Shown here one piece after another: positions 926 through 20,802 of a stretch of DNA of 20,802 nucleotides. The translations under genes were made by a program, and so were the position numbers. Each line of letters starts with the position of its first letter. The first letter of the stretch is position 1. The notes under the pieces were generated by a model that saw only the letters and a program-made list of their open reading frames with translations, had not been told where the DNA came from and made no database searches. Origin of the DNA: Trichoplax sp. H2 (taxonomy: Eukaryota); assembly GCA_003344405.1 (NCBI GenBank), contig NOWV01000181.1, positions 138,001 through 158,802 of the forward strand. The letters are read 5' to 3'.

Positions 926-3900
926 ATGGATCCTGAATTTAAGAATCGTCTTGAAAAGAAACGCCGTAAAGTCCAAGATACCTTTGAATTTGAAGGATGT
1001 AAAGTTGGACGGGGTACTTATGGCCATGTTTATAAGGCCAAGATGAAAAGCAGGTAAACATGAAGACGATGCAATCGTCCTATCCTATAGCCAACCAATT
1101 TTCCTTCCATGGCTACTTTCTCCGTTCATAGTCGATACATTCCGTCAATAATAAATAATAATAATAATAATAATTAAAAAAGAGCGCTTAAAAAAAGGAC
1201 GGTCGATAGCATGATTTTAAAGTGTATCCATCTACCGTGCTTATTCCATCGGTATGATGCCAACAAAAGAGTCTTTTTCTTGCTGACAAGGAAGGAGTTT
1301 TTTCCAACGAGTTGCACAGTGTTGAAGATCCAATCGCTTGACATTGATAGCATGTTGTGACCAATAAATGTAATTTCTTTTTTATCGGATGGATAGTGGC
1401 AAGGAATATGCCTTGAAATTAATCGAAGGAAGTGGTATTTCCATGTCGGCCTGCCGTGAAATTGCTGTAAGTCATGACAACGTTGAATCATACTTTGAAA
1501 ACCGACCGTAGTCAATTTAATTTGTATTAGTAATGCATGACTTCAAGCATGATGCTGTTAACCAAGTTGTCATCTCGACTATTTCTTCCTTTTCTATTAC
1601 ATCCTTAGTTATTGCGAGAAGTCCATCATCCCAACGTCATCTCATTACAAGGAGTATTTCTAACTCATACCAATCGAAAAGTTTGGTTACTATTCGATTT
1701 TGCCGAGCATGATTTATGGGTAAGACAGGATGAACTAATCGAGTAGAGCCCAGGATAGCATAGCTCTTTCTACGATCATGTAATCGTTCTAGTTTGTCAA
1801 GAGCCATCTACGAAGGCCCAACGACAGTGCCTGCATGCAAATTTCGACTCGTTCTAGTCTAAAATACCCCAGATAAATACTTAACCATAATCTAGAATTC
1901 ACTAGTCGAATCCACAAGCAATTTTATGCATGACCTACATTCATCGCAAACAAATATTATGCCTGACCAAGACAGTCATGATCTTTTGCTAATTTTTCAT
2001 CCTATCTTTGACGTCCTGTTGCAATCCATCTTGCCACTGTCATTTATCATCTTCCTCATGAATATTCCGTTAATGCTTGTAATAGTATTTGTTATCATTG
2101 ACAGCGACCAAAGTATCCCTTTTTCGTTACATTCCTCGCTTCTAGTCATACCAAAAGTTTTCCATCGCTTTATTTGCTTCTAGGAATGCCCAGCTTTCCT
2201 TGACTAAATTGTAACAAATGAAGTAAAGAATACCAAACGTTGCTTCCCTTATTTTATAGGATTCTAAAAACTCGATCAATTGTGACTACATTCCAAACAG
2301 GAACTCATTTTATTACCATCATTAAATCAGCTGCAATAGCAATAACTGCTCACCTTGTCCTTGAATTAGTTCGGGCGCCATTTAATAACCAAGATTGTGA
2401 CCACGTTACGTTCCACATAGTCAGTGATTGCATCCATCAAAGACCTACAGAGGCAATTAACGTCCTTAGTCGTATCATCCATTTCATTTGGAAATGAAAT
2501 GGATGAATCTTCAAGTTCACAAACTAATCCTTGTGTCATGACATTCCATGAGTAAGCATACTTGTTAACTAGTAACTTGCACAGTTGTTGCAAAAGTATC
2601 TTAGCATAATAGATGCTGTAATCGTTGTTGATGAACGCTCTAGTAAAAATGCCTTAATTCGGTTAGACGCTAATCTCCAAAGAAATGTGTAGAAATGGAT
2701 TATCTTCTCCACTGAATATTGTATTAATATTACTTGTCTTTATTTGTCATGATGTATAGCACATCATCAAATATCATCGATCGAAAGCAGGTGATAAAGC
2801 AATCTCTCTCGATTCCAAAATGGTCAAATCTTTACTAAAGCAGATTTTAGAAGGGATACACTATTTACATGCCAATTGGATTTTACATCGTGATTTGGTA
2901 AGTTTGCTATAGTACGGCATAGGAAATCAATTCGTTCACAACGATGCTCTTTCTGTAACATAATATTCGATTGCATTGAAATAAGAAACCGGCCAATATT
3001 CTCGTCATGGGCGAAGGACCAGAAAGAGGAAGAGTCAAAATTGGTAATAAAGTGGAACTTATCAAGTACTTTGTACCAGTAAATTGTCTTTCTCAGCCTT
3101 GTTTTAATAACTACTGTCCGTATTGATCATAACAGCCGACATGGGATTTGCAAGACATTACTGGTCGCCTTTGAAACCCCTTGCCGAGCTAGATCCAGTC
3201 GTAGTGACATCTTGGTATCGAGCTCCTGAATTACTCCTGGGTGCAAGGCATTATACTAAAGCAATCGGTAAATTGATATAGCAGGTTTTGAGCTCTCTAA
3301 TTATAATCAGTAACTAGCTATTCATTAAAAGTTGATAATTGCATCGTAATACTGCTCACGCTACTCATCATAAATTGATTTCATAATCTGTTGTTCATTT
3401 TCTTCAACGACTGCAACCACTGTTAATGCGCTTACCTTTGAAATAGTTCTTATCGATTGCTTCCAATATCATTCACTTCCATTATCATATTCTTTTGTAG
3501 ACATTTGGGCTATAGGCTGTATTTTTGCTGAATTGCTTACTTCAGAGCCGATTTTTCATTGTCGACAAGAGGATTTTAAAACGAGCAACCCTTATCATCG
3601 CGATCAATTGGAAAGAATCTTTATGGTCATGGGATATCCGCATGGTATAACTTTTAAAATTGTTCTGAATTAAAATCAAAACAAATTTGCCATGTAGCTA
3701 TGTTTTTGAGTTGTGCTTATCCATGCATTAAATAACTATAGAAAAGGATTGGGAAGATATAAAAAAGACACCAAACTATGCTAAATTAGCGTCTGACTTT
3801 AGAAAAATTTCGTATGTCTAAAATCGATAGAATTCGAAATGAATAATTGTTGATATTGATTCTATGGTCCTTCTAATGCCTATTGCTATTTTCAAATTAA

Positions 3901-4876
3901 GGACGTACACAAATTGTAGTTTGGCAAAATACATGGATAAATTTAAGATTAAGCAAGACAGTAAAGAATTTATACTGGTTAGTTCATCCTATTCTATATT
4001 TTGTTTAGCCATATCTGGCTGATTATGAGATGTTTTGTCAACAATTTTCTCTCCCATAGCTTCAAAAATGCCTAACAATTGATCCAAATAAGAGAATATC
4101 GTCTGAACAAGCCATTGATGATGCATACTTTCGCGAAGAACCACTACCAACGGAAGAGTAAGTATAGTGACTAATTGGTAAATTTCTACTGCGTTCAAAA
4201 CAGTTGATGTTGTCGAATTGGCTATAGCGTATTTGATCACAAAACAATTCCATATCCGAAAAGAGAATTCCTAAATGAGGATGACAATGAAGACAAGGGT
4301 GATAAGCATAAGGTATATTGCGATGGCGTAGATTATATATATTAAACACTTTATGACATATCAGCGGTTGGTTGTGAAATAGAAATGATTTGTTATACAA
4401 GCATAAGGATGTCTTTATTACTGTGACTTAAAGTTAATTTTATGGAAATGTAATATCCTATTCCCAGATAATCTTCATTATACGTTCCTGTTTATTCATA
4501 GAATAAAAAGATGGAAGCTACCACTACTCATAATGTTAACATGGATAACATGATCCATAACAGGTCGCATCAACAACAACGAATGAATAACGCCTATTCT
4601 GCAAAGCGTGCGCTGCCAACAAATCCAGTGGCAAATTACCAGCGGCAGCAAGCAACTCATATGGCTGTTACCGCTAATAAAGGGAATTATAGTTCAGGTA
4701 GCAGTTTACTTCAACTGTTATTAGCATCAAATTACTATAAGTTCTTAAGTGTCAATCACTTATTACTCACCTTGACCCGTGATATTATCGGACTTATTTT
4801 CATGTCTAGTTTAATTTACTTTTTCATTTTTCCTATATGGATACTTATACTAAAGATAAATATAACGTCATTGTAA
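926..4876 (+). CDS. CDK8: Cyclin-dependent kinase 8 (CDK8/CDK19 family, Mediator kinase module) ortholog, 12 coding exons. Exons (phase-checked, GT-AG): 926..1053, 1397..1466, 1609..1719, 2760..2897, 2986..3043, 3136..3267, 3501..3644, 3742..3811, 3902..3977, 4060..4157, 4228..4312, 4502..(4697 or 4876). The 3' end is uncertain.
   Basis: Spliced translation: [382 protein letters not shown]... This matches human CDK8 nearly residue for residue. Conserved motifs include the [15 protein letters not shown] glycine loop, the [13 protein letters not shown] cyclin-binding helix (CDK8-specific), HRDLKPANILV, KIADMGFAR and [10 protein letters not shown]. All splice junctions conserve reading frame and have GT donors and AG acceptors. 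The last exon reads through into hydrophobic low-complexity sequence after ...[25 protein letters not shown] donor at 4698 (tcag|gtagca) suggests the true CDS may splice to a short terminal exon instead of running to the TAA at 4877. Confidence 0.9.
1147..1174. repeat. (TAA/ATA)n microsatellite inside CDK8 intron 1
   Basis: Direct reading: caataataaataataataataataataatt. Confidence 0.85.
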
Positions 4877-7261: not shown

Positions 7262-9821
7262 ATGAATTCAAAGGCAGTCAGTATGAGTATAACATTAACA
7301 ATCTTTCTAACAGGAACTTTTTGTTTCCCTACAGCAATAGGTGAGAATGAGAATTCAGTAATCCTGTAGAAATACGCTATCCAAATTGGAATGCTGTTAA
7401 GAATGCCATATAAGGTTGATAATGACGACGCATTAATAATCTGCTTGGAATTTCTTTTTAGCTCAATGCGATATCGCATTAAATTTCACCAAAGGAGAAT
7501 TTCACTCCATTGATTATCCTCAACATTATCCTGCTAAAAAATGTTCTTATACTATTCAAGCTCCTTCCGGTTATCATATTATATTGAATTGGCAAAGTTT
7601 TCACGTAGGATTGCCGAAGCAAAATGATCGCTGTCCCAGCGATGAAGTTGCAGTTTATAATGGCCGAATTAGTTTACACCAAGGCCGAGTAACAATGTGC
7701 GGCTATGATGGAGAAAGTGTTACATCAAGTGGAAATATTTTAACAGTGGTTTTATCTGGCTACAGCAATCGAAGGTATACAGGATTTCTGGCTAAATATT
7801 TCATAGGTAAGTTATTTTAATCCTCATAACGATATACACACTTGTAAGTATTTGGCCTTTCATTTCGTTTTGGAAGCATTGATGATTGCTTTGAAACAAA
7901 GACTGAGTATATTTAAGTTCATTTACATTTAATATTTCTAATATACGTATCAATGCAGAAGGGTGTGGGGTTTTTCGTATGGATTTTCTGTATTGTGAGC
8001 TGTACCCCTCTCGTTTTACAAGATACTGGAAATTTAACAAATCAGATATATTTTATAAAACGGCTATTCTATAAGCTACACATACTGGTATATACGACTA
8101 CAGAATTTTTAGAGTTACATCACATAAATTGATGAACAATTTTGCGAAATGTAGCCATAATTAGCTAGAAACTGTGAGAATTACATTAATTCAAATTGTT
8201 CGACTTTCTAATGGTTGTTGTTATAGTCAATGAACCAAATATAAGGCCATTGAATATGTGATAGCTATCAGTACTTGATCTGAACCTTAATAGCAATGGC
8301 AATCCTTTCAGTATAACAGTCTCTATTTATCCATTTATGAATGATTTTTAAGTTACTATTTAATTATCTTCTCTGACAAATTAACAAGAGCTTCATGAAC
8401 AAATTCCAGAAATGATTTCGGCCATGCTCTATAGTAAATCCGGCCTTCAGTAAAATGATATTACTAATCTTCTTAGTATGCAATTTCTAAGAAGATTCAG
8501 CTTAACTTTTCCCTTAAACATAACCACAATTGAAATAGTATTGCATAGATAGATAATAATTATTAGACTGCATTACATAGTTTAAATCGGTAACAATAAA
8601 GCGGATAATGCCGATCTGGTCTATTATGACTATCCCTTGCTTCACTGCTTTGGGTTATTTACACAGAGTAGTTTATAAATAATAATTGAGATTTACAGAG
8701 CCTCGTACATAATTGAAATATTTGTAATGAAGCGTCGGTTCGTTATATATTACAGGTACCGTAATCTCCTAATTAACAGTATTTACTATAGCAATATACG
8801 GTAGCAATTTAGGCGTAATAATTTCAGTATTTGCTAAACTGCATATCAACTTAATTCGGGTTTCAGTTAGCCTAAGCAAGATTTAGTACAAATTCGAGGA
8901 TAATACAAATACTGTACTAAATTTCGAATTGTTTTTTTTAACTTTATTTCAGAACGCATTAAATGTGCTAGTATGACCATAACAACAGATATTGGAATGC
9001 TTTCTGGCCCGCTAGCTTATCCTTGGGATTGCCTATATACGATACAGCTGGCTTCAAATCGAAATGTTAACTTTGAGTTATTGCATCATAACGTTTCATT
9101 GCGATCTAGCCAGTCCGCCTGCCTATCTTACGTTGCACTATACATTAACAATTTCACACCCAAGAACGAAATCTATCAGTTTTGCTTTGATCATATGTTT
9201 CCTCCTATGTATTCTTCGAGTTCCAATATCGCATTTGTACGATTTCGTAGTAAGGAGCAGCAAAATCCATTCTACGGGCTAACGGTCTTATATCGCTCAC
9301 GTAAGTTGAAAGTTCAATTGCAGCAAAAGGTGCCATATTTATTCTCTAGTATTGTACGTATATAATATGCATAATTTTGAAGTTATAACTACAGGAATTT
9401 TTCAATAATTCAATTTCATTGGCTATTAAATGAGATATAGAATAAAGTATAAAAGTAAAATTCTGATACATTTGTACAAGCAAAACCTCACAGCTATAGA
9501 AATTTAGTACAGTGTATTTTATTGAATTATTTATTTAAAGCTCAAAATGACATTTTCTTGTGCGTTGCTATTATTACTAGCTCTACACTTTGATAGCATA
9601 ATCCACTAATTATTGCTATTGCTTTTGTAGATTTTGTTACTCATTCTTCTCCTACAAAAAAAACATCGGTGCCAGAACATAACATAGCTGTTAGAATTGT
9701 CTTAATCATAGCTATAGCATCAGTAGCATTGACCGCTATTTGCTGCTCTGGATATCATGGGCGAAAATACTACAACAGACGTATTGAAAATCCTGAAGAA
9801 GTAGAGCCACTACAGCAATGA
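7262..9821 (+). CDS. Type-I membrane protein with signal peptide, two CUB domains, one TM helix and a short basic cytoplasmic tail (about 320 aa). Exons: 7262..7340 (signal peptide), 7462..7806 (CUB1, 345 nt), 8953..9300 (CUB2, 348 nt), 9631..9821 (TM plus tail, stop TGA 9819..9821). All introns are phase 1.
   Basis: Exon 1 MNSKAVSMSITLTIFLTGTFCFPTAI(A) is a hydrophobic signal peptide with donor gtgaga. Exon 2 AQCDIALNFTKGEFHSIDYPQHYPAKKCSYTIQAPSGYHIILNWQSFHVGLPKQNDRCPSDEVAVYNGRISLHQGRVTMCGYDGESVTSSGNILTVVLSGYSNRRYTGFLAKYFI has the CUB signature: four Cys in C-x25-C...C-x19-C spacing, YP motif, VYNG, CG, GF..Y. Exon 3 ERIKCASMTITTDIGMLSGPLAYPWDCLYTIQLASNRNVNFELLHHNVSLRSSQSACLSYVALYINNFTPKNEIYQFCFDHMFPPMYSSSSNIAFVRFRSKEQQNPFYGLTVLYRS is a second CUB. 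Exon 4 HFVTHSSPTKKTSVPEHNIAVRIVLIIAIASVALTAICCSGYHGRKYYNRRIENPEEVEPLQQ* has a 21-residue hydrophobic TM followed by a basic stop-transfer. Acceptors are tttttag, atttcag and ttttgtag; donors are gtaagt. Frames were verified against the ORF track (7584 and 8973 ORFs are in frame). Confidence 0.8.
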
Positions 9822-9862
9822 GTGACAATAGCTATAGCTCTAGAGATGCGAGAAATTTTAAC

Positions 9863-9868
9863 AATAAA
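9863..9868 (+). promoter_or_regulatory. Candidate polyadenylation signal AATAAA 42 nt downstream of the gene A stop codon
   Basis: Sequence ttttaacAATAAAgaaagg. Canonical hexamer at a plausible distance, but AT-rich DNA generates such hexamers by chance. Confidence 0.3.
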
Positions 9869-12073
9869 GAAAGGCATATCAAAAATTTCTATCGACGAAC
9901 TTATGGCAATATATCATGATTCGGAAATTGACTAATGAGTAAAAATTTTTCATATAATAATGGCATATCACTTATGATGGTTTGCCGATCGAACTGATGG
10001 AGATTATACTCTATAAAACAATACGGGTTTGCCTTCATTATCTTTATAATATCATTTTTGGTTTGGTAGTAATCATGTAAATGCTACCGTTAATTACTGA
10101 CAGATTGAGTCGCTTGCTGCACTTCACGATAGGCCCATTTGGAAATATTTAAATTCTAGATTTAATAAAACTAGACTACTATATGCATACTAAATAGTAA
10201 GCTTATTAGTAATACAAGTACTAATCTTGGTACTATTTGAGCTGTATATGTAGTTTATAACAAGAATTATAGGCATGAGATTTTTCCCCAAACATAATAA
10301 TTTATAAAATTATGGCTGAATTATATTATCCGAACACAATTAAGTTAAGATATCTAGTACTTATTAAAAGATATGAAAACCCTTTAGACTGTCATCAATT
10401 ACTATGCCGGGTCTGAAAGTACAATAATATTGCGAATTTTTTTGTCTATCAACGGTAATTAAACTCGGCAAGTAGATGATACTAAATTTTGCTAGCATAT
10501 TGTAATACTACTTACGGATAATTCTATAAATTTAAACTTATAGTACTCTTTAAAATTTTCGACGGTAATTTTTAAACATGCAGATAAAGTAATATCATAT
10601 TATAGAAAATAATTAATATCTAATATTTACCAGAATGCTTATATATGCACCTTATTTATTTATCTTATAAAACTAATCGTTGATGAAACATATAATAAAT
10701 TAATCTAAAGTAAAAGCACCTGAGTTATTCCAGAAGAACTAATAGACAAATTATATACTAAATTTTAAAGAAATCTTTATTATAGGATTAGAATAGTATG
10801 CCTTTAAGCATTGTGTTAGATATTAATTACAGTTTTTATTAGACAATGTATAGATTAGTATAACTACGCTTTAATTTATAGCATTTATAATACTGTAGTT
10901 TCTTAATTGTGTTATTTATAAACTCACTACTATATATTCTTATAGAGGGCAGATTGATAACTTGGAACACCAAAATTTATACTAGCTCTATACAAAATAC
11001 ATATAAAAATTTTTAAGAGCACTCATTCTCGTTTTACTACTGTTATACCTTAACATTGATAGTGATACATAAAATTTATTCGTAATTTTTATATGTAAAA
11101 ATATTGACCAAATAGAATCGAATAATTGCAATAGTAACTCATAGTGAGATAGCTCAATATTTTGCATAACCTGTTACTTCAGTGATGTCATAGAGTGAAC
11201 TATTTATAACTTTACATTCGTATTGTTTGTTTGCATACCTTTATTAAATCCAATAAAAGCTTTGAAAAAATTAAAATATATCGGCATGACAACGTTGAAC
11301 GTAATCTGCGTTACTTGTATCCTATTAATTCAGGTCGAAAGAATGTGTTATATATCTGCTACTTATATTCAAGGAGGCCTTTTTCCTTCCTTTACCTTAA
11401 GGTGAGTTAATTCTGTTTGGGATTACGTTACTTCTGGACGTGCATGCGCATTCATTTCCGGTTCCTAGCTATATCATAATAATGCCGTATCATACCTATA
11501 GCAGCCTATAACTAACTAAAGTTTGTAACGAAAAAACTAAAACTGCGAGCTTACTAGTAATGATATTCAACTACTTTCAATCCACTATCATTAGAGGGCT
11601 GCAGTACCTGCACATCTCCCTTTTACTATTAGCTAATCAACGAAAGTAGATTAAATACCAAGCAGTCTATTGCCACATGAATATCAATTAAGATTGCGTA
11701 CGTAACGTTACAAACAGATACACTTATGTCATAAAAATATCTATTTAATACTCTAAAAATATAATAATTAACATTAAATTTCTAGTTGTCAAGTGATAAT
11801 TATGTTACTGCTAGTTAGCGCAAGTTACACCTTAGGACAGAAATAAATATTATCTCACTTTGTCGACATAACTTTATGTCGCTTTTTAAAGGTTGCTTAA
11901 ATTGCTTTAATTACATGTACTGCATTTAGAAAACTCTGTATCAGATTTTTTACCCTATTAGCTTAATCTTTACCTATCACCTATTCATTCACTACGGTAC
12001 CCTTTTCTGCTTTTGAATTTAATTTTGAAGACATGAGAATGATTTAAAATACTAAGATCAGATGAAAGTAGCT

Positions 12074-12080
12074 TATAAAT
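12074..12080 (+). promoter_or_regulatory. Candidate TATA box (gctTATAAATttt) about 80 bp upstream of the CUB gene B ATG
   Basis: TATAAAT consensus; distance to the ATG at 12160 is compatible with a short 5' UTR. No transcript data. Confidence 0.25.
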
Positions 12081-12159
12081 TTTCTGATGCTGCAAAATAA
12101 TTACATTTCCTAACACTAATTAGGCGATTTTATTTATGTTTTAGAAGCAGATATCGAAA

Positions 12160-14462
12160 ATGAAGGTTGTCTTATTAACATTATTGTTCTTTATTACCAT
12201 TGCCACGACCGTTCAGGGTGAGTTTTATAATTAAATAATCTCAATTAACCATTTTCTTTATTTTATTCTCAGTTACTCTAAGTTACAACTAATTAAAGAC
12301 CGACAACCTTTGTATAGCGTTAGGACTAGCGTCATTTATTTATGGACTTTTCTCTCAGTCCGTTGTAGCTATGTTCTGTTTAATTTAATCATCGGTGTTT
12401 GAGTAACCTTTTATTTCAATTCTTAATAGCAAGTTGCAATATCACACTAACATCAAGGAGTGGCAGTTTTAAAAGCCCATATTATCCTCAAATGTATAAT
12501 CGCACATATTGTTACTACTCCATTTTCGTTCCCAGTGGCTACATAATTCGATTACATTGGCAGACATTTGATGTTGGCACACCTCAGACTTTCAGCAAAT
12601 GTCATGGCGATAAAGTAACAGTTTATAATGGATACAAAAGACCAGGTACTAAGAAAGTGGAGCTGTGTGGTCAAAAGAAAAAGTCTTTTTCTTCAACATC
12701 CAATCGTCTTACGGTTGTGTTCGATGGACGCACTAGTCGCAAATATCGAGGCTTCTATGCAGTTTATGATACAAGTAAGTCTTCCTCTCTTCATCATCAA
12801 CAAAATTAATAGAAATTATACTTAACAATTTTAATTAAAACAAGGTAACACAAATTATACTATTTGTTCTGTCCTTGTAGTAACCCCTATCGTAATGAGC
12901 AGCTACTAATTAAACTTATTCCAACAATTTAACTATATAGCTGTTATTTAGAATTTGACTTTCTTTGCAAGTAAAACTTTTTGGTATGATATTCGGCTTG
13001 GATTTTAATTGTAATAGAATTAATGCGTACTTTAGATACCCCGATGGCACGGTATGATTTTAAAATGATAGATTATTTTTTAAATTAGCAGCCAACCAAT
13101 TTACTATATATTGGCCAACTGCAGCAGGACAAATTCATTATTAACTACCGTACCTACGCAAAGATTTCATTGAAGCACAAATCTAACAGCACGTATTAAT
13201 TTCGATGGATCTTAATCTCAAAGAGCAAATACAATTGATCGTTCTTGGACCATCTTTAGAGAACGACATTGCATCTAATACCTGATAGTAACAATTAAAT
13301 TGATGCCTTACTTTCCTATTTGATAGATTAGTATCAAACTATAAAATCTTCCTGCTAACGACTGAGGGTCGACATTAAAGCCGAGTATTAAATAACAGTA
13401 ACTTGCAATTATGGCTAAATTTTAAGATCGATGTCTAGCTTGTACTTATGTAGTAGGATAGATAGAATAACAAGGTAGCTTCCATTAATAATAATATAGA
13501 AATGCTAAGTTGTAATAGCATTTGCTTATATTACACAAACTAGATTTATATGGCTGCAATGCATGCTGAACTTGTTGATTGAATAGACAGAAATAGCTAA
13601 ACTCTTAATTATTATCCGGCTAAAGAATTTTATCGTTTATATTAAGCTTTACCATCAATCACCGGCACTCCGAAGAGACCTGTTACTCCTTCTCGTGTGA
13701 GTACCTCCTCTTATATCTCCAAGACAGTAATTTTCAAAAATTCAACTTGTACCCGCTATCAATGGTACCATAATACACCACAAGGAAAAGTCCCCTACAA
13801 AATAACGATTACTTGTACGAAAGGTAAATTTTATTCTTTGCTTCTTAACTTAGTCAATCACAAGGACGCATTCAATTGCTATTCAAAGATACAATTCTGC
13901 AGTGACTACAGGATTAAAATTGGCTAAAATTTCCTGGTACTGTTACGGTTAATTGGATTAAATTATAAATTCTAGTTTTTCAAAATCAATTTTCTCAGTA
14001 TACTTATAATCAAGCTTACTCAGTTAGTAAAAACTTTTAAATGTTACGTATAGCTACAGGATAAGCAATTAGTACCTTTGATAAACTTGAATAACATTCA
14101 GACCGATGATATTTCAATCAGAATATGGACGATTTAAAGTAATAACAGTCATCGTACGATATAGTTGCACCCTTTACAACGTTTTGTTCGTCGTTTTAAG
14201 TACAAATTTGTTACCTGCGCGAGTTGCATCTTCAGCAAATTTCCATACAAAGCAAAACTATACTCAGATTCTACTGGTTGCGATATTAGTGTTAACGCTT
14301 TCTTACTATTTGTAATTATTTTTGTGTTACATGATTTCTATTATAGGTGTGAGCGTGGTTACCATTATTGCTGTATCGGTTAGTATTTTCATTTGTGCAA
14401 TAATTGCAGGAATTTTTTACACTATTAAAAGACGACGAGGACCTCATTTTGTTAGGCTATAA
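12160..14462 (+). CDS. Paralogous type-I membrane protein: signal peptide, one CUB domain, a Ser/Thr/Pro-rich linker with a 2-Cys motif, TM helix and a short basic tail (about 232 aa). Exons: 12160..12217, 12430..12774 (CUB, 345 nt), 13647..13823, 14347..14462 (stop TAA 14460..14462). All introns are phase 1.
   Basis: Exon 1 MKVVLLTLLFFITIATTVQ(A) with donor ggtgagt. Exon 2 ASCNITLTSRSGSFKSPYYPQMYNRTYCYYSIFVPSGYIIRLHWQTFDVGTPQTFSKCHGDKVTVYNGYKRPGTKKVELCGQKKKSFSSTSNRLTVVFDGRTSRKYRGFYAVYDT is a CUB with all four Cys, and is clearly homologous to gene A CUB1 and gene C CUB1 (shared WQTF.VG, C.GD.V.VY.G, CG, GF.A.Y). Exon 3 TLPSITGTPKRPVTPSRVSTSSYISKTVIFKNSTCTRYQWYHNTPQGKVPYKITITCTK is bounded upstream by an in-frame TAA immediately before the AG acceptor; its phase-1 entry matches the exon 2 donor acaa|gtaagt and it ends aaag|gtaaat. 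Exon 4 GVSVVTIIAVSVSIFICAIIAGIFYTIKRRRGPHFVRL* is a TM helix plus KRRR stop-transfer. Exon 2 is well supported. The choice of exons 3 and 4 rests on frame compatibility and on the architecture shared with gene A. Confidence 0.65.
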
Positions 14463-14779
14463 AGCGAGTGGACCACATCAGCACATAAAATTTGCTGGAA
14501 TACACAACATCCTTATATACAGTTGTTTCCAATTAGCGGTAACAATTACGAATATGATTATGTTATTAGTGCAAAAGATGCGCCGGTTTTAGTGTCGTAG
14601 GAAACTACAGCGATCGCAGCATTTCGTTCTTATTCGGAGTCTTGTTAATTAATAATAGATGTTATTCGTAATTCTCGTTTACAATCTTCGGCTTCTACAG
14701 TATACATACTAAGAATATAAGTATTGAAAGCAATGTAATAGCGATTGTCTATTAACTTGAAGTACTAGTCTGCATTTGG

Positions 14780-15720
14780 GTAGGTTCTAGATAATGAAAA
14801 TTCAGAAATTACTGTATCCCGTAGAATTTCGTTCTAATGAGTTTACTAAGTTTAGTAAGTGGATCGATGTTATTCATAACTATTAATTGCGATCTTTGGA
14901 TTTGTAAACAAAGTTAGAATACAAGTAGTTAAAACAAGACAATTCGCAACAGCAGAGATTTATGTTAACGAAAACCATGCAATAAACTATTTTATTCCAA
15001 ATCGTCTGTGATTAGAATTTGTTGGAGAATTCCAAAAAAGCAGATCTATTACAACATATTTGGTAAATATCGATGGCAATATGTTTTATATCTCCAAAAT
15101 TAGCGTAGAACTATGCAAACCGAAGCGTACACGTAGTTAAAGTAATGCAAGAGAGGTTTTTGTGAGCGAAAAACCAATAATAAACTGCTTGTATTCAGTA
15201 TCGTTAGTGATTAAAATTTGTTGAAGAATGCAAAAGAAGCAGGTTTATGGCTCCTTATTTAGGCAATATCAATAGCAATAGTAATCATAACCTCAAAATC
15301 AGTCTAGAACATTGTGAACTTAAGGGATACAAATAGTTAAAGCAACGCAACAGATATTATCTTCTTTGTAGTGGAGATTATAACCTGCTGTTAGAGATGT
15401 TTGTTCACGATAGACTGGAAAATACAGTAACCACAGAATTTCCGTCTTATACTTAGTCTAGTACGTGAATCGATGTTGATCATAACTTTTATATGTGATT
15501 TGCAGCTTTTAAACAAGGTAAGTAGATGACCAGTTATAGCAACGCTGCAGAAATTGTCCCCTTGCATTTGATAGTCTGCAACTGGAGAAGTTTATATTAA
15601 CGAGAATCCCGTAATAAACCATTTATTTCGAATTATTTGTGATTTCAATTTGTTGGAGATTCCAAAAGAAGCACATTCATAACACCTCATTTAGGCAATA
15701 TAAACAGCTGTATGCTTAAC
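14780..15720. repeat. Satellite-like diverged tandem repeat family, unit about 200-205 bp (units begin near 14928, 15134 and 15335). The third unit is interrupted by an insertion that itself resembles the segment just upstream (about 14790..14930).
   Basis: Recurring collinear blocks: agtagttaaaacaagacaattcgcaacagcagagatttatgttaacgaaaaccatgcaataaactattttattccaaatcgtctgtgattagaatttgttggagaattccaaaaaagcagatctattacaacatatttggtaaatatcgatggcaatatg // cgtagttaaagtaatgcaagagaggtttttgtgagcgaaaaaccaataataaactgcttgtattcagtatcgttagtgattaaaatttgttgaagaatgcaaaagaagcaggtttatggctccttatttaggcaatatcaatagcaatag // ...cccgtaataaaccatttatttcgaattatttgtgatttcaatttgttggagattccaaaagaagcacattcataacacctcatttaggcaatataaacagctg. 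Also gaatttcgttctaatgagtttactaagtttagtaagtggatcgatgttattcataact matches cagaatttccgtcttatacttagtctagtacgtgaatcgatgttgatcataact. Confidence 0.75.
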
Positions 15721-16589
15721 ATCATAATAATCATTCTTGAACATTGCAAGTATTAAGAATTGCTCCGCGACGAGTAATATGCATTAACACATAGACTTCT
15801 CAACTCTCATGTGAAGACAAGAAGTGATCGTACTGATGTTGTACCCGACTTTGTATACCATATCTACGCATACCATAATCGTATGATACTCCCACATTGT
15901 ACAGTAATCTATTCCATAAAGATACATGCATCATAAACATCATGAAGTCATATTACAATTTCAACGAGTGCTGGTAACTGTCACAACCCTCACTTGTGGC
16001 AAAGGAAAGTAAAGAACTCTAGTGTAGTTACTTAAAACTTGGGCTATTTCTCCCAGTACTTTCAGTTTCTATGAGAGAAGTATTTGAGAACTCGATTTCT
16101 CGGCTGATCTCCATAGACAACTGACTAATTATTACACCATTCTTCACGATATGAGTCTTGCCGTTTCTTGAGCAATTACTAACTTTATTCTACAAACACA
16201 CGCGCTTAAATAGGTTTCTACAGTGAATTCCAATATTAACGAGTGAGAATTCATGCTTTACAAGTTACATTAATTAGTATAATACCATTACTAAATATAC
16301 ATGTCGATATTCTCAGACTTAGATAGCTACAAGCTATCAGGTGTTAAGACGCTTAACCTTCGTCCATATACGGCTCAATTTTTAGAGATTAACACACCTT
16401 ATAAACCTACAGTAAATTAACTGCTAACAACTTCTATTTTTATCTCATTTCTATCATCCTATTATCAGCTACAAGCGCATTAAACATAGCACATAACCTT
16501 ATCTTAACTATTCATAAGCATTCACTAATCTACAGTTACTTAATTAGTAACGGCGTACCGTGACAGTAACATAACTTTATTGCTTGTTA

Positions 16590-16850
16590 CTCTACACATT
16601 TTACAACTACTGACGTAACAGCAAGTAAAAGCAAACAAGTAATTAAAGCGACAAAATAGAGATTATCTTCTCTGTGCTTGGAATGATAATCTGTAACTGG
16701 AAAGATTCTTGTCAACAAGAAGGCTGTAACAAAGTGTTTTATTCTGAATTGTTTGCGATTAGAATTTGTTGGAAAATTCAGAAGAAGCAGATTTACATTG
16801 CCCAATTTGGTTAATATCAATAGTAACGTGTTTCATAACTTTTTCTCTCC
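16590..16850. repeat. Additional dispersed copy of the same repeat unit of about 200 bp, roughly 900 bp downstream of the main array
   Basis: gtaattaaagcgacaaaatagagattatcttctctgtgcttggaatgataatctgtaactgg...aacaaagtgttttattctgaattgtttgcgattagaatttgttggaaaattcagaagaagcagatttacattgcccaatttggttaatatcaatagtaacgtgtttcataac aligns with the units at 15335 (aatagttaaagcaacgcaacagatattatcttctttgtagtggagattataacctgctg) and at 14980..15080. The minus-strand ORF 16587..16820 lies entirely within this repeat and is not regarded as coding. Confidence 0.65.
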
Positions 16851-17680
16851 CAAATTTTGAATATTCTCATACTAGTGTATCACTTATAGTAACATAACCT
16901 AACAATAAAAGTAGCCTATTAATTTGCTTATCTACATTAATGCCCATGCCATTCGATAAAAAGAATCATACAAGCTCCAAAGTATGATTACAATTAACGC
17001 ACGCGGCTATCACAGATATACAACTTTCATCTTGCAGTAGTCAGCAATCCATCAAGAATAATATATGCACAAATGCATGCATGAATGGAATGATCGCTGC
17101 TATTTCACAGGTATGCAACTATTAAAGTATTAGTTAAACAATCCATAACCATCATCAAATAGAACTACCTTGGAATGATAACAATTCTATCCCCGATAAT
17201 TATGACAAGCATGATGAATTGATGATGTCAGTGAGAGAATGCGCAGAATAATCTTTTCATCAAATAGAAAAAATAAATCTGTGGTTGGCATTCTAGTGGA
17301 TATATGATCTTTGTTAAAGAGCTCAACAGGACTTAATTTTAGCGATTCATATGTTAATTAATGCTTGCCACATTGATCAGTAACGTCGTTATTATTACCC
17401 TATTGACAGTTATTAACGAAGGCTATACAGTAGATTCATTAAAGGAAAAGAAAAATTGCCGTCATTCTATTCAAGAAGCTCTCTATTAAGGCTAGGAAGG
17501 ATAGTTAACGGAACTTTTTATCTAAGTTATCAGGAAATTTCGTGATAGACATACGATTTGGTAAGTTGAAATTCTCTTACTCGGTTTACGGATTCCTTCT
17601 CGGTTATCATGATGCAACAATGAATAGTGAAAGATATTGTCCACGGCAACGATTGTGCCTCATGCTGGTCAAATCGAGCA

Positions 17681-18050
17681 GTATCTTTAATCATTGAGCA
17701 TAACTTTTAGCACTCTTTGGGAAAGTAAAAATTATTTTTAAGTCACAATTGAAACAATATCTTTCAAAATCTTCCTTAGCTACTTAAAGTAAGATCATGA
17801 TATAGTTTACTAACTAGTAAAGCTATCTTAGTAAAAGATAGAGTCCTTAGGATCGAACATGATGGATGCTTGTCAACCCTAGTATCTTTAATTAAGCATT
17901 GAATATAAAACTTTAGCACTCCTTTAGGAAAGTGAAGTTTATTTTCAACTCAAGCTAAAAATATCATCTTTCAGTGTCGTTCTTAGCTACTAAAAATAAG
18001 ACCATAAAGCAGTTCACTATCTCATGAAGCTATCAGATTTTAGTCTGGCA
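17681..18050. repeat. Diverged tandem duplication, unit about 200 bp, two copies (17681..17880 and 17881..about 18050), upstream of CUB gene C
   Basis: gtatctttaatcattgagcataacttttagcactctttgggaaagtaaaaattatttttaagtcacaattgaaacaatatctttcaaaatcttccttagctacttaaagtaagatcatgatatagtttactaactagtaaagctatcttag versus agtatctttaattaagcattgaatataaaactttagcactcctttaggaaagtgaagtttattttcaactcaagctaaaaatatcatctttcagtgtcgttcttagctactaaaaataagaccataaagcagttcactatctcatgaagctatcag. About 75% identity by eye, collinear. Confidence 0.75.
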
Positions 18051-18962
18051 AATGATTTCTAAAATTTTAATGTATAGGTTACGATTAATATACGTAAGTT
18101 TTTTAGGTGTAGAATATCATGGACAGAAGTCAACAGGTCGCTCGCTTTACATCATCCTTCGTCTAATTACTTGCCATATACGTCTAATAGACTGTAATTT
18201 CCACCATAAAATTAGTTTATTGCAATGGGTTAAGTCTTAATCATGACAACAAATTAACTTTCGTATCAAACTTAGTGATCACTGCCAATTTCTATAGGTT
18301 TATTTGAAAGAATCGTAGATTTAAACCAATCAAGGAGACAGCTTCGCTTATATTTCACAGCTAGTAAAATCTTATCAGGTTCCTTTACCATCAGTCATTC
18401 TACGTCAAACGATGCCTTAAATGATATATTACTTTGAAGAAGGTTTACAAAGGTTCATAAGTACACCTTTTAGGCTGTAATTTAAGACAAAGATAGATAG
18501 TGTCCTCAAATATAACCTTTACAGTTTCTATTGCAAAGGATTCTGATGGATGGCAAGTCAAATTTTGAGAAAAAGATGTTCGAAATGGCATCTTATAATG
18601 CCTTTTCTCATGCTTACTAAAAGCATATATGCATATGCCTAAGCATCTTATACTTAGAGGCTCAGCAAGATTCAACTCAAGATAGTAAAAGTAGATATCG
18701 AAAACAGTTACGCAAATTGTATCAGAAATAGTGGCTAGTATGCCGATTTTGACAAATTATGATAGGCTTAATAAATATCCATAAACTTCTCTCTATACCA
18801 GTAATAACGTAATAAGCAAAGAAAGAACTAAAAAAAGACGCTATATTTTTATTTACTCTTATTCCTTCCATACCATTTTATCGATATCGAACTTAAAATC
18901 AAATTGTTTCTCTAAGAGTTGAATTCTAACTTTTCCCCAGAATACAAAAAACCCTTTCCGCC

Positions 18963-20702
18963 ATGAAATTAATTTCAATTGCTTTCATAACTGCCATCAT
19001 GATGGCCTGTGTCGACGGTAAGAAGTTAATTACAAGCAATAATGCTCTTATTACATTGCAATACTTAATCTTATTTTTAGTCTATAGGATGATAAACTGA
19101 AATTATGGCTTACAATCGTTATAATACACTACCTATTTTTTATTTGATTAATGATGGTAGCTAGTTGCAATTTCAAGTTGACATCGAACTCCGGATCCTT
19201 CCATAGCCCAAATTATCCAAATAATTATGCTAGTGGAAAGTGTGAATATAAAATTACAGTTCCTAAAGGTAAAGCGGTCCAGTTAACCTGGAAAACTTTC
19301 AATGTTGGTCCTTCCAAGGTGAATAAGAAGTGTCCTGGAGATACAGTTTCGGTCTATGATGGCACTAAGGACAAAAATAATGGCATTGACATTCTGTGTG
19401 GGCAAGAAATTCAATCAATTACATCGAGTGGCGGTAACCTGACTATCATTTTAGATAGTAAAAGCGACAAAAAATATAAAGGTTTTTCAGCTTCCTATAC
19501 TACAAGTACGTGAATTCTTCTAATATTTATATATAGATTAAAACCTACTAACAGATATAATTTAATTCTCAAGCCTTGTAAAACTTCTACATAACATGTA
19601 TAATGCATACATATACCGCACATATTTATTGTAAATACAGTATATGGTACATTGCCTATAAAGTAACGTATGACATATACAGTTTATAAGTAAATTTTTG
19701 TAATGTTATATTGATAGAAACCTACTAACACGTATAATTTCACTAAAAACCTTACATGCAGCGTAAATCGGCGACTGAATTTCTTTTATTCTCTTTAAAA
19801 TCACAGTTGACGTAGCCTGTAATGGTATGACTTTATCGACCGATTCAGGATATATTGCCTCTCCCAATTATCCTAACCCATATCCAATTAATTCAAATTG
19901 TTTGTATAAAATACAACTGCCACCTAGGAAAGTTATAGCTATTGGCTGGTTAGGCTTTGATATTCCTTTTGGCCAACCATCAAATTGTCAAGACTACGTG
20001 GAAGTTTATGATAAAGAACCCACAGAAAGCAGTAAAGTTTATCGCTATTGTGACCCTGGATATTATCCACCCCAATTTACCTCTAGCAGCAATGTAGCCT
20101 ATATAAAATTTGTTAGTTCCAGTACCAAAAACAAGAATCACAAAGGTTTTATTGCTTATTATCGATCAGGTGTGTTAAGCAAACACAGTGCCTATATTCA
20201 TAATAGTTAGTCTTTCGAAGTATATCAGGCGTGATTGCTCATTAAAAGCTAATGGAAAAGAAATTTAGCTGATGTATAGATAATTGCAAATATACTCGTT
20301 TTATTTATTAACCTTGTAATCTACCGTCTATTAAAATTAGGTACCAGACAAACCTGCAATATCAATTATGGCACTGCGACAGGAGTCGTTACAGTTCCTA
20401 ATGTACCATCACTAGTTGGTCAAAATTTGGACTGTAAAATTAACATCAACGCGAAATTGTCTGATATAATTAATTTTAAATGGATGGAATTTGGCTCTGA
20501 TTTATTCTCTAAGCCCGACTCTTGTCAAAATTTTATCGAAATTTACGGTGGTGACATGACTGCATCTAATTTAGTCTCGAAGAAATGTAATTCTAAAACA
20601 GGTTCTAGCGTCAGCATGAATGGTACAACGGCTATTGTGCATTATAAAATCAAAAATTATAACACCAAAAAAAACTTTCGCTTAGTTTATCAAGGAGGTT
20701 AG
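18963..20702 (+). CDS. Third paralog: signal peptide plus three CUB domains, possibly 3'-incomplete in this window. Exons: 18963..19017 (signal peptide), 19161..19505 (CUB1, 345 nt), 19807..20169 (CUB2, 363 nt), 20341..20697 or 20702 (CUB3; either stop TAG at 20700..20702 or GT donor at 20698 continuing beyond the window).
   Basis: Exon 1 MKLISIAFITAIMMACVD(G) with donor gtaaga. Exon 2 ASCNFKLTSNSGSFHSPNYPNNYASGKCEYKITVPKGKAVQLTWKTFNVGPSKVNKKCPGDTVSVYDGTKDKNNGIDILCGQEIQSITSSGGNLTIILDSKSDKKYKGFSASYTT has the same 345-nt length and the same phase-1 borders as the CUB1 exons of genes A and B, with donor acaa|gtacgt. Exon 3 IDVACNGMTLSTDSGYIASPNYPNPYPINSNCLYKIQLPPRKVIAIGWLGFDIPFGQPSNCQDYVEVYDKEPTESSKVYRYCDPGYYPPQFTSSSNVAYIKFVSSSTKNKNHKGFIAYYRS is homologous to gene A CUB2 (SMTITTDIGMLSGPLAYPWDCLYTIQL), with donor tcag|gtgtgt at the same YRS position. 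Exon 4 GTRQTCNINYGTATGVVTVPNVPSLVGQNLDCKININAKLSDIINFKWMEFGSDLFSKPDSCQNFIEIYGGDMTASNLVSKKCNSKTGSSVSMNGTTAIVHYKIKNYNTKKNFRLVYQGG has four Cys in CUB spacing. Frames agree with the ORF-track ORFs at 19151, 19827 and 20427. Confidence 0.75.
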
Positions 20703-20802
20703 CCATATTATTTATACGTAAATAATAAATATTAATTAAATATAATTGGCCTCCAGTGTATATTTTTAAAATAATGGAGGGCACTTGATTAATATTTATT
20801 AA

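What the first reader, a model, noticed from the sequence alone, without database searches (positions are those of the whole stretch)
7262..20702. Tandem same-strand cluster of three paralogous CUB-only type-I membrane protein genes next to CDK8
Three genes at 7262..9821, 12160..14462 and 18963..>=20702 lie on the + strand within 13.5 kb. Each begins with a short signal-peptide exon ending in phase 1, followed by a 345-nt exon encoding a complete four-Cys CUB domain. The three first CUB domains align with one another (ASCN(I/F)(T/K)LTS.SGSF.SP.YP..Y, W(Q/K)TF.VG, C.GD.V.VY.G, CG, GF.A.Y) at roughly 40-45% identity. Gene A CUB2 and gene C CUB2 also pair (C..MT(I/L)(T/S)TD.G.(L/I)(S/A)(G/S)P.YP..C.LY.IQL). 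Genes A and B end in a TM helix plus a short basic tail. The architecture (SP, 1-3 CUB, TM, short tail, with no LDLa, EGF, protease or Sushi modules) does not match the well-known CUB receptor families: Neto and LEV-10 carry LDLa, SOL-1 has four CUB, and tolloid and cubilin are far larger. This looks like a lineage-specific, recently expanded family of small CUB membrane proteins. Such proteins commonly act as auxiliary subunits or co-receptors (established for Neto, SOL-1 and LEV-10), so an analogous role is a hypothesis only.
Basis: partly seen in the sequence, partly recalled or inferred. Interest (0 to 1): 0.65.

Follow-up and report, generated by a model that had tools for sequence, protein, structure and literature searches.

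The report
Tandem placozoan CUB-only membrane protein genes
The window comes from the placozoan Trichoplax sp. H2 and does carry three neighbouring genes, part of a cluster of four, for small cell-surface proteins built only from CUB domains; they are already predicted in public annotations but unstudied, were found only in placozoan or placozoan-like sequences, and are old duplicates rather than a recent expansion.

Summary
All proposed exon joins give open frames with GT/AG borders. Pfam CUB matches are strong (A two domains, B one, C three). Gene A's model is identical to Trichoplax sp. H2 protein RDD38347.1. Gene C's in-window part is identical to RDD38345.1.

Corrections:
- Gene C does not stop at 20702. 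It splices at 20697/20698 and continues outside the window with a stalk exon and a TM exon.
- A fourth paralogue, D (TRIADDRAFT_61598), lies about 5.8 kb downstream of C.
- The domains are positionally orthologous (CUB1, CUB2 and CUB3 groups). The family therefore arose by whole-gene duplication plus loss of phase-1 exons.
- Synonymous sites between paralogues are saturated, so the expansion is not recent.

New findings:
- B, C and D share a two-cysteine, N-glycosylated juxtamembrane stalk. A profile of it found nothing else among 1.84 billion proteins.
- C and D end in a C-terminal YxxΦ motif, which is conserved in two divergent D orthologues.

Best reading: ligand-binding type I membrane glycoproteins sorted by a LAMP-like tyrosine signal (inferred). 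Interest is modest: these are uncharacterised, lineage-specific members of a known kind of protein.

The parts
7262..7340 (+). Gene A exon 1: start codon and signal peptide (MNSKAVSMSITLTIFLTGTFCFPTAIA), ends in phase 1
   Evidence: GT donor, 79 nt. The whole model is identical to RDD38347.1.
7462..7806 (+). Gene A exon 2: CUB1, 345 nt, four Cys, phase 1-1
   Evidence: (Pfam CUB residues 29-139).
8953..9300 (+). Gene A exon 3: CUB2, 348 nt, phase 1-1
   Evidence: second CUB stretch; 34% to C2, 28% to D2.
9631..9821 (+). Gene A exon 4: Ser/Thr/Pro linker, TM helix, 23-residue tail (GYHGRKYYNRRIENPEEVEPLQQ) and stop. It has no stalk module and no C-terminal YxxPhi.
9863..9868 (+). AATAAA polyadenylation-type signal 42 nt after gene A's stop
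12160..12217 (+). Gene B exon 1: signal peptide (MKVVLLTLLFFITIATTVQA), phase 1
   Evidence: This junction is not confirmed by any deposited model.
12430..12774 (+). Gene B exon 2: CUB1, 345 nt
   Evidence: (Pfam CUB 22-132, E=2.8e-18).
13647..13823 (+). Gene B exon 3: Pro/Ser/Thr linker plus the two-Cys stalk module (VIFKNSTCTRYQWYHNTPQGKVPYKITITCTKG)
   Evidence: H1 model P0017 supports both flanking junctions.
14347..14462 (+). Gene B exon 4: TM helix, tail KRRRGPHFVRL and stop
18963..19017 (+). Gene C exon 1: signal peptide (MKLISIAFITAIMMACVDA), phase 1
   Evidence: Identical to the N-terminus of RDD38345.1.
19161..19505 (+). Gene C exon 2: CUB1, 345 nt
19807..20169 (+). Gene C exon 3: CUB2, 363 nt
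20341..20697 (+). Gene C exon 4: CUB3, 357 nt. The donor is at 20697/20698, not a stop at 20702. The gene continues beyond the window with a stalk exon and a TM exon.
   Evidence: AG|GTTAGC...LVYQG|VTTGVLHKEIIFKNATC....

Best explanation
What it is (shown):
- The window is Trichoplax sp. H2 DNA.
- Downstream of CDK8 lies a same-strand tandem array of four paralogous genes, A, B and C in the window and D about 5.8 kb beyond C.
- Each encodes a small single-pass type I membrane glycoprotein.
- The ancestral plan is kept in C and D: signal peptide, CUB1, CUB2, CUB3, a roughly 35-residue juxtamembrane stalk with two cysteines and a conserved N-x-S/T-C sequon, a TM helix, and a 13-14-residue basic tail.
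- Every module is its own phase 1-1 exon. The array arose by whole-gene duplication. In-frame exon loss then produced A (no CUB3, no stalk) and B (no CUB2, no CUB3).
- The duplications are old.

How it most likely works (inferred):
- The CUB ectodomains bind an extracellular or luminal protein ligand.
- They probably do not use the canonical Ca2+-dependent mode, because the Glu of the Ca2+ triad is replaced by Gly in CUB1 and Pro in CUB2.
- The stalk holds the ectodomain at the membrane.
- The short tail of C and D ends in Y-x-x-hydrophobic at the C-terminus (F-x-x-L in B). This has the format of LAMP1/CD63-type tyrosine sorting signals read by clathrin adaptor mu subunits.
- The proteins would therefore be internalised or delivered to endosomes and lysosomes. 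That makes them trafficking or uptake receptors, not signalling receptors.

I put the gene and architecture part above 0.9 and the sorting-receptor mechanism at about 0.35.
For: Gene structure and identity. H2 gene models come from an evidence-based Maker run with RNA-seq (PMC6057997).

Fourth gene and full architecture: (D: six exons, all phase 1, 464 aa). The independent H2 partial model P0018 has the same CUB3-stalk-TM joins.

Positional orthology of domains: CUB1 group 31-46%, CUB2 group 28-39%, CUB3 pair 41%, between groups 15-35%. C-D is collinear at 39.5% over 438 aa, E=6e-107.

Stalk is a family-specific module: a 43-position profile searched against 1.84e9 representatives returned only B, C, D and one D-like fragment, plus two repeat artefacts. 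It has no Pfam match.

Constraint: between D and its orthologue on L002, synonymous sites are saturated (pS 0.71-0.76). pN is 0.17 for the stalk, 0.24 for TM plus tail, 0.27 for CUB3 and 0.32 for the end of CUB2.

Tails: D reads ...LIIVSGCLLAR[YC]L[QA]R[SR]R[QH]RYQ[NHQ]L-stop in three genomes. C ends in PYRQI-stop (H1 type) or GYRKM-stop (H2 record). B ends in HFVRL-stop.

Fold: the AlphaFold2 model shows three CUB sandwiches at pLDDT 75-90 and a TM helix at 421-445. The closest solved structures are cubilin CUB5-8, PCPE-1, neuropilins and MASPs.

The missing Ca2+-site Glu is seen in the alignments and the invariant 'VG'.

That C-terminal YxxPhi in short tails targets LAMP1 (GYQTI) and CD63 (GYEVM) to lysosomes through AP complexes is established knowledge. 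It was not tested here.
Against: - There are no expression, localisation or ligand data. No paper mentions these genes, and the cell-atlas supplements that are held do not list them.
- Gene A has no YxxPhi, and B has Phe instead of Tyr, so the sorting signal is not a family-wide feature.
- The Tyr lies about 10-11 residues from the membrane. That is a little further than in classical lysosomal proteins.
- Strong conservation of the inner half of D's TM helix would fit an intramembrane partner, as in auxiliary subunits, at least as well.
- The stalk is modelled with pLDDT below 50, so its fold and disulfide are unproven.
- B's first junction and its full model have no independent confirmation.
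- L002, L003 and L004 are unidentified environmental or SRA contigs. That they are placozoan is an inference from AT content and from matching CUB, stalk and TM exons.
Confidence: 0.55

Rival explanations
1. Auxiliary subunits or co-receptors of ligand-gated ion channels or other receptors, as for Neto1/2, SOL-1 and LEV-10. The CUB domains would dock on the channel ectodomain and the TM helix would pack against the channel's membrane domain.
For: - The general plan is the same: signal peptide, CUB domains, one TM helix.
- Neto2 in GluK2 complexes is a significant sequence match (7f56_E, E=3.3e-11) and a significant fold match (7f59_E, E=1.7e-12).
- In D orthologues the TM helix and juxtamembrane tail are at least as conserved as the CUB domains (pN 0.24 against 0.27-0.32). 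That fits an intramembrane partner.
Against: - There is no LDLa module.
- Neto2 ranks well below cubilin, PCPE-1, neuropilins, MASPs and C1s in sequence and fold searches.
- The domain counts of 1-3 match neither SOL-1 (4) nor LEV-10 (5).
- No co-expression or interaction data exist.
- A C-terminal YxxPhi is not a known feature of those families (from memory, not tested).
Confidence: 0.2
2. Cell-surface recognition or adhesion molecules that bind food particles, microbes, extracellular matrix or neighbouring cells, with no trafficking role for the tail.
For: CUB domains are general extracellular protein- and glycan-binding modules. The CUB ectodomains diverge faster than the stalk, TM helix and tail, as is often seen for recognition surfaces.
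Against: The tails are too short for signalling or cytoskeletal linkage. This reading gives no explanation for the conserved C-terminal YxxPhi. pN/pS is well below 1, so there is no sign of diversifying selection.
Confidence: 0.15
3. The three units are exons of one large multi-CUB gene, or are decaying pseudogenes or annotation artefacts.
For: They lie on the same strand with short spacing (2.3 and 4.5 kb). All exons are phase 1, so read-through splicing would stay in frame.
Against: - Each unit has its own Met plus signal-peptide exon. A and B end in-window in a TM exon followed by a stop, with AATAAA signals 42 nt and about 520 nt downstream; C's TM exon and stop lie outside the window.
- Evidence-based H2 models keep A and C separate.
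- All exons are intact in both H1 and H2. Exon divergence is 0.21% against 0.67% in introns.
- D is under purifying selection across genera.
Confidence: 0.03

Closest known systems
Cubilin (CUB5-8 fragment, PDB 3KQ4); also the automatic name given to gene C in the H2 annotation
   Same: It is the best sequence match (E=1.1e-49) and the best fold match (E=6.9e-25) among solved structures. Both have strings of consecutive CUB domains. Cubilin is an endocytic ligand-binding receptor, which parallels the mechanism proposed here.
   Different: From established knowledge, cubilin has 8 EGF repeats and 27 CUB domains and no TM segment, relies on amnionless for anchoring and endocytosis, and binds ligands through Ca2+-site acidic residues. 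Here there are 1-3 CUBs, the protein has its own TM helix and tail, no EGF is present, and the Ca2+-site Glu is missing. Identity is only about 24-30%.
Neto1/Neto2 (kainate-receptor auxiliary subunits)
   Same: Type I membrane proteins whose ectodomain starts with two CUB domains. Neto2 is a significant but weak match (7f56_E, 3.3e-11; 7f59_E, E=1.7e-12).
   Different: Neto has an LDLa module between CUB2 and the TM helix, and a long cytoplasmic domain. Here there is no LDLa, the tail is 11-23 residues, and B, C and D carry a different juxtamembrane module.
SOL-1 and LEV-10 (C. elegans CUB-domain auxiliary proteins of GLR-1 and of levamisole-sensitive AChR clusters)
   Same: Single-pass proteins whose ectodomain is essentially all CUB domains. 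SOL-1 is CUB-only, like this family.
   Different: From established knowledge, SOL-1 has four CUBs and LEV-10 has five CUBs plus LDLa. Neither appeared among the homology hits. No orthology was shown.
CUZD1 (CUB and zona pellucida-like domain-containing protein 1), the automatic name given to gene A
   Same: Two N-terminal CUB domains and a C-terminal TM segment.
   Different: The ZP domain that defines CUZD1 is absent from gene A. The name comes from a Swiss-Prot best hit in the Maker pipeline.
LAMP1/LAMP2/CD63-type short cytoplasmic tails (functional analogy only)
   Same: A basic stop-transfer cluster, then an 11-14-residue tail that ends exactly in [YF]-x-x-hydrophobic at the C-terminus. 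Examples here are KAVKRRRSTPYRQI, RYLQRSRQRYQNL and KRRRGPHFVRL. From memory, LAMP1 is RKRSHAGYQTI.
   Different: There is no LAMP luminal domain (Pfam finds CUB only). Gene A lacks the motif. Sorting has not been tested.

Membership tests
CUB domain superfamily (PF00431) | Match to the Pfam CUB HMM above the gathering score | tested here: met
   A 80.3 bits (2 domains), B 66.7 (1), C 168.8-170.3 (3), D 116.1 (3); cut-off 21.4.
CUB domain superfamily (PF00431) | Beta-sandwich fold of about 110 residues with four conserved cysteines | tested here: met
   All four CUB1 domains have four Cys. The AF2 model of C gives three all-beta domains at pLDDT 75-90. These superpose on single solved CUB domains (TSG-6 2wno, rmsd 2.1 A, TMt 0.85; NRP2 a1 6gh8, rmsd 2.0 A).
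Ca2+-binding CUB subtype (C1r/C1s, MASP, cubilin, tolloid) | Glu-Asp-Asp Ca2+ triad (C1s Glu45, Asp53, Asp98; signature recalled from the literature) | tested here: not met
   The Glu position aligns with Gly of the invariant 'F-x-V-G' in all four CUB1 domains, and with Pro in C's CUB2 (alignments to cubilin and PCPE-1). The middle Asp is kept. The third Asp is present only in B1 and C1 by my own manual register. This is a sequence-level test only.
Neto1/2 | LDLa module between CUB2 and the TM helix | tested here: not met
   No PF00057 hit in A, B, C or D at E<=0.1-1.
LEV-10 | Five CUB domains plus LDLa | tested here: not met
   There are 1-3 CUB domains and no LDLa.
SOL-1 | Four CUB domains followed by a TM helix | tested here: not met
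   There are 2, 1, 3 and 3 CUB domains.
SOL-1 | Sequence orthology to C. elegans SOL-1 | not tested
None appeared among the hits.
Cubilin | N-terminal EGF repeats, 27 CUB domains, no TM segment | tested here: not met
   No EGF was found. There are three CUBs and a TM helix at residues 421-445.
CUZD1 | Zona pellucida domain after the two CUB domains | tested here: not met
   No PF00100 hit in gene A.
CDCP1 | Long cytoplasmic domain with Src-family phosphorylation sites (recalled) | tested here: not met
   The tails are 11-23 residues.
Neuropilin / DCBLD | Coagulation factor V/VIII (discoidin) domains after the CUBs | tested here: not met
   Only CUB was found by Pfam. Neuropilin matches cover the CUB domains only.
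Proteins with a LAMP/CD63-type tyrosine sorting signal (functional class, not a homology family) | Short cytosolic tail ending in Y-x-x-hydrophobic at the C-terminus | tested here: met
   Met for C (two allelic forms) and for D (three genomes). B has F-x-x-L. A lacks the motif.
Proteins with a LAMP/CD63-type tyrosine sorting signal (functional class, not a homology family) | Adaptor binding and endosomal or lysosomal localisation | not testable with these tools
   This needs cell-biological experiments.

The most novel reading that the evidence does not exclude
The four genes would be a placozoan-only family of CUB receptors built on a private membrane-anchoring cassette (two-Cys glycosylated stalk, conserved TM helix, C-terminal YxxPhi). 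Two readings of interest remain open. In one, they act as endo-lysosomal uptake or sorting receptors of the digestive epithelium, a minimal self-anchored counterpart of the cubilin-amnionless system. In the other, they are Neto/SOL-1-like auxiliary subunits of ligand-gated channels in an animal without neurons. Either would tie a lineage-specific gene family to placozoan feeding or to pre-neural signalling.
Probability: 0.12. Interest if true: 0.6.

Novelty: new member of a known kind. Interest (0 to 1): 0.3.

Why it matters
CUB-domain single-pass proteins recur as ligand-capture receptors (cubilin, neuropilins) and as channel auxiliary subunits (Neto, SOL-1, LEV-10). Placozoans digest food externally and coordinate behaviour without neurons. 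A small CUB receptor family that was detected only in placozoan-type sequences, is conserved and carries a probable sorting signal is therefore a reasonable candidate for either nutrient uptake or modulation of surface receptors.

Practical value:
- The deposited models need correction. H1 gene A is unannotated. The H1 models of B and D lack the signal-peptide exon. The H1 model of C lacks the TM exon.
- The H2 names 'Cubilin' and 'CUZD1' are misleading.
- The family now has a defined diagnostic stalk motif: [IV]-x-F-[KS]-N-[SAT]-[ST]-C-x(4)-W-Y-x(2)-[TA]-P-x-G.

Without expression or functional data this remains an ordinary lineage-specific family, not a surprise.

Tried and rejected
- Literature: searches for the gene and protein identifiers, and for CUB plus Trichoplax, found nothing on these genes. 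The held supplements of the placozoan cell atlas (PMC10580291) do not list them. Sebe-Pedros 2018 is not held.
- H2 contig beyond the window: exact-protein look-ups of RDD38347.1, RDD38345.1 and RDD35854.1 found no contig. The downstream part was read from the H1 scaffold instead (L001).
- One-gene hypothesis: rejected (see rival explanations).
- Relic CUB exons in the A-B and B-C spacers, or in the H1 C-D spacer: only chance-level tblastn hits.
- A stalk exon hidden in gene A's intron 3: none.
- H1-versus-H2 dN/dS: too few differences to be informative.
- JGI metagenome scans: the stalk patterns gave nothing. The CUB1 patterns gave only generic CUB exons at 39-46% identity over 65 residues or fewer.
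- About 200-nt periodicity of the B-C spacer: not supported by autocorrelation or TRF.
- AFDB fold library, to list Trichoplax paralogues: not available.
- Apparent duplicated CUB1-CUB2 on L003: an artefact, because the file holds both L003 and L004.
- tRNA and Rfam scans of the window: empty.

Full report
**Source and observation**

The window is AT-rich eukaryotic DNA (GC 26-40%). First exons are 79, 58 and 55 nt, all ending in phase 1. Each is followed by a CUB exon of exactly 345 nt.

Pfam finds only CUB: two domains in A (80.3 bits), one in B (66.7 bits) and three in C (170.3 bits), against a cut-off of 21.4.

Gene C's protein is 100% identical to TRIADDRAFT_61597 of Trichoplax adhaerens. 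Gene A's 320-aa model is identical over its whole length to RDD38347.1 of Trichoplax sp. H2.

The window is 99.4% (8406-15978) and 97.8% (16566-20802) identical to H1 scaffold DS985264.1, so it is H2 DNA. The H2 models come from an evidence-based Maker run with RNA-seq, and their names come from Swiss-Prot best hits (PMC6057997).

The upstream neighbour is CDK8 (E=5.6e-143 to human CDK8).

**Corrections and extension**

RDD38345.1 continues ...LVYQG|VTTGVLHKEIIFKNATC... So C's CUB3 exon ends at 20697 (donor AG|GTTAGC, phase 1). The TAG at 20700-20702 is intronic.

On the H1 scaffold the gene goes on with a 120-nt exon and then a TM exon ending ...KAVKRRRSTPYRQI-stop. An independent H2 model (RDD35969.1) uses exactly these joins.

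About 5.8 kb downstream of C's last (TM) exon, by L001 coordinates, lies a fourth paralogue, D (TRIADDRAFT_61598). I rebuilt it as six phase-1 exons giving 464 aa: signal peptide, CUB x3, stalk, TM helix, and the tail RYLQRSRQRYQNL. H2 partial model RDD35854.1 has the same CUB3-stalk-TM joins.

Deposited H1 models are defective:
- B and D lack the signal-peptide exon.
- C lacks the TM exon.
- A is not annotated at all.

B's full 231-aa model is not in the protein collection. The H1 model does support its junctions 12774/13647 and 13823/14347.

**Family history**

Domain-by-domain identities fall into positional groups:
- CUB1: A1, B1, C1, D1 at 31-46%.
- CUB2: A2, C2, D2 at 28-39%.
- CUB3: C3, D3 at 41%.
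- Between groups: 15-35%.

C and D are collinear over 438 residues (39.5%, E=6e-107). All modules are phase 1-1 exons. The simplest history is therefore tandem duplication of a whole SP-CUB1-CUB2-CUB3-stalk-TM gene. In-frame exon loss then removed CUB3 and the stalk from A, and CUB2 and CUB3 from B.

No relic CUB exons remain in the spacers. A has no hidden stalk exon.

The duplications are old. Paralogue CUB1 exons have pS 0.66-0.81 (saturated) and pN 0.39-0.45. D and its orthologue on contig L003 have pN 0.18. 'Recently expanded' is not supported.

**The stalk module**

B, C and D share a juxtamembrane segment: [IV]-x-F-[KS]-N-[SAT]-[ST]-C-x4-W-Y-x2-[TA]-P-x-G-x-[VI]-x(6-7)-C. It has two cysteines and a conserved N-glycosylation sequon directly before the first one.

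A 43-position profile was searched exhaustively against 1.84 billion representative proteins. It returned only B, C, D and one 75-aa D-like fragment, plus two repeat artefacts. The segment has no Pfam match. AlphaFold2 predicts three short strands there, but at pLDDT below 50.

**Orthologues and constraint**

Three unidentified AT-rich contigs carry exons collinear with D's: its 3' part on L002, all modules on L003, and its 5' part on L004. They are L002 (ENA metagenome), and L003 and L004 (Logan assemblies).
- Identity of L003 to H1 D: CUB1 68%, CUB2 51%, CUB3 56%, stalk 65%, TM plus tail 63%.
- Identity of L002 to H1 D: CUB3 52%, stalk 69%, TM plus tail 62%.
- L002 against D: pS is saturated, and pN is 0.17 (stalk), 0.24 (TM plus tail), 0.27 (CUB3) and 0.32 (CUB2 end).

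The gene is under purifying selection, and its membrane-proximal cassette is the most constrained part. The inner half of the TM helix and the tail read ...AVLIIVSGCLLAR[YC]L[QA]R[SR]R[QH]RYQ[NHQ]L-stop in all three genomes.

**Mechanism**

Shown:
- One cleavable-type N-terminal signal sequence (AIA|Q, VQA|S, VDA|S, VNA|G) and one TM segment (Kyte-Doolittle hydropathy 2.6-2.8).
- Three to six N-glycosylation sequons per protein.
- Tails of 11-23 residues that begin with a basic cluster.
- Three CUB beta-sandwiches at pLDDT 75-90.
- Closest solved relatives are cubilin CUB5-8 (1.1e-49), PCPE-1, neuropilins, MASPs and C1r/C1s. Neto2 is weaker, at 3.3e-11.

Inferred:
- In the alignments to cubilin and PCPE-1, the Glu of the canonical Ca2+ triad aligns with Gly (the invariant 'VG' of CUB1) or Pro (CUB2). 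Ligand binding is therefore probably not of the classical Ca2+-bridged type.
- C ends in PYRQI or GYRKM. D ends in RYQNL, RYQHL or RYQQL. B ends in HFVRL.
- A short basic tail that ends exactly in Y-x-x-hydrophobic is the format of LAMP1 and CD63 sorting signals, which are read by clathrin adaptor mu subunits (established knowledge, not tested here).
- The chance of this four-residue pattern at the very C-terminus is roughly 1% per protein by my own estimate. It is kept in two paralogues that share only about 40% identity, and in all D orthologues.

I therefore favour ligand-binding glycoproteins that are endocytosed or routed to endosomes and lysosomes, at about 0.35.

It is compatible with the conserved TM helix. 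It has no specific support: no LDLa module is present, the CUB counts do not fit SOL-1 or LEV-10, and Neto is not the closest relative.

Recognition or adhesion is about 0.15. The one-gene or pseudogene readings are about 0.03.

**Comparison with known families and novelty**

The proteins are bona fide CUB-superfamily members. They fail the defining features of cubilin (EGF, 27 CUBs, no TM), CUZD1 (ZP domain), Neto and LEV-10 (LDLa), SOL-1 (four CUBs), CDCP1 (long tail) and neuropilin or DCBLD (discoidin domains). The H2 product names are best-hit artefacts.

No paper mentions these genes. They are already deposited as predicted proteins.

The family is small, with four members found, all in one array. 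Close relatives were seen only in placozoan-type sequences. I rate it a new, uncharacterised member of a known kind, the CUB-only single-pass membrane proteins. Its private stalk module and a probable tyrosine sorting signal are the only distinctive features. Interest is 0.3.

**Limits**
- No expression, localisation or interaction data could be obtained.
- The identity of L002-L004 as placozoan is inferred.
- The stalk fold is not reliably modelled.
- The H2 sequence downstream of 20802 was not available. The discrepancy between the two versions of C's TM exon is therefore unexplained. A divergent allele is the likely cause, given the admixture described in PMC6057997.

Noticed in passing
window about 926-4876 (+): Multi-exon CDK8 orthologue. 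Exons encode [16 protein letters not shown]..., the activation loop DMGFAR...[18 protein letters not shown], and a Gln/Asn-rich C-terminus. Match to human CDK8 is E=5.6e-143. The exact exon borders and the 3' end were not worked out.
   Followed up: partly
window 14463-18962 (B-C spacer); copies at 14993-15115, 15192-15314, 15624-15746, 16740-16862: Four copies of a dispersed repeat of about 123 nt (60-72% identity), plus several shorter repeat pairs. There is no conserved ORF on either strand, no TRF array and no global periodicity. The nature of the element is unknown.
   Followed up: partly
window 15978-16566: About 590 nt are present in this H2 window but absent from the H1 scaffold DS985264.1. 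The surrounding spacer is 2.5% divergent, against 0.2-0.7% in the genes.
   Followed up: no
window 16566-20802 and beyond; L001 12928-13078: H1/H2 identity drops along the window from 99.4% to 97.8%. Just outside it, the TM exon of gene C in RDD38345.1 (ATVTLPTWAIVM...GYRKM) is only about 35% identical to the H1 exon. A separate 4.6-kb H2 contig (RDD35969.1) carries the H1-type exon. This is probably a divergent allele or haplotig, but an alternative exon is not excluded.
   Followed up: partly
L001 548-1416 (= window 8953-9821): Gene A's DNA is present in T. adhaerens H1 at 99.4% identity. No H1 protein for it exists in the 5.8-billion-protein collection, and no gene is called there. It is an unannotated gene in the reference H1 annotation.
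   Followed up: partly
L001 2881-6195, 10001-12463, 17520-22150: The H1 JGI models are defective. TRIADDRAFT_64360 (B) and 61598 (D) start in spurious upstream exons instead of the signal-peptide exon (the D signal-peptide exon is at L001 17694-17748). TRIADDRAFT_61597 (C) starts at an internal Met and lacks the TM exon.
   Followed up: yes
window 6382-6413/6789-6820 and 6510-6545/6913-6948: Two repeat pairs about 405 nt apart upstream of gene A suggest a decayed direct duplication of about 400 nt in the CDK8-A spacer.
   Followed up: no
window 10000-11500: The A-B spacer is the most AT-rich stretch of the window (GC 26%). No ORF, RNA family or repeat was found there.
   Followed up: no
TM-cytosol boundary of A (window about 9740-9750), C and D (outside the window): Cysteines sit at the cytosolic end of the TM helices (A ..AICCSGY.., C ..GVGCCIY.. 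or ..IFCCFC.., D ..VSGCLLAR..). They are possible S-palmitoylation sites. This is speculative.
   Followed up: no
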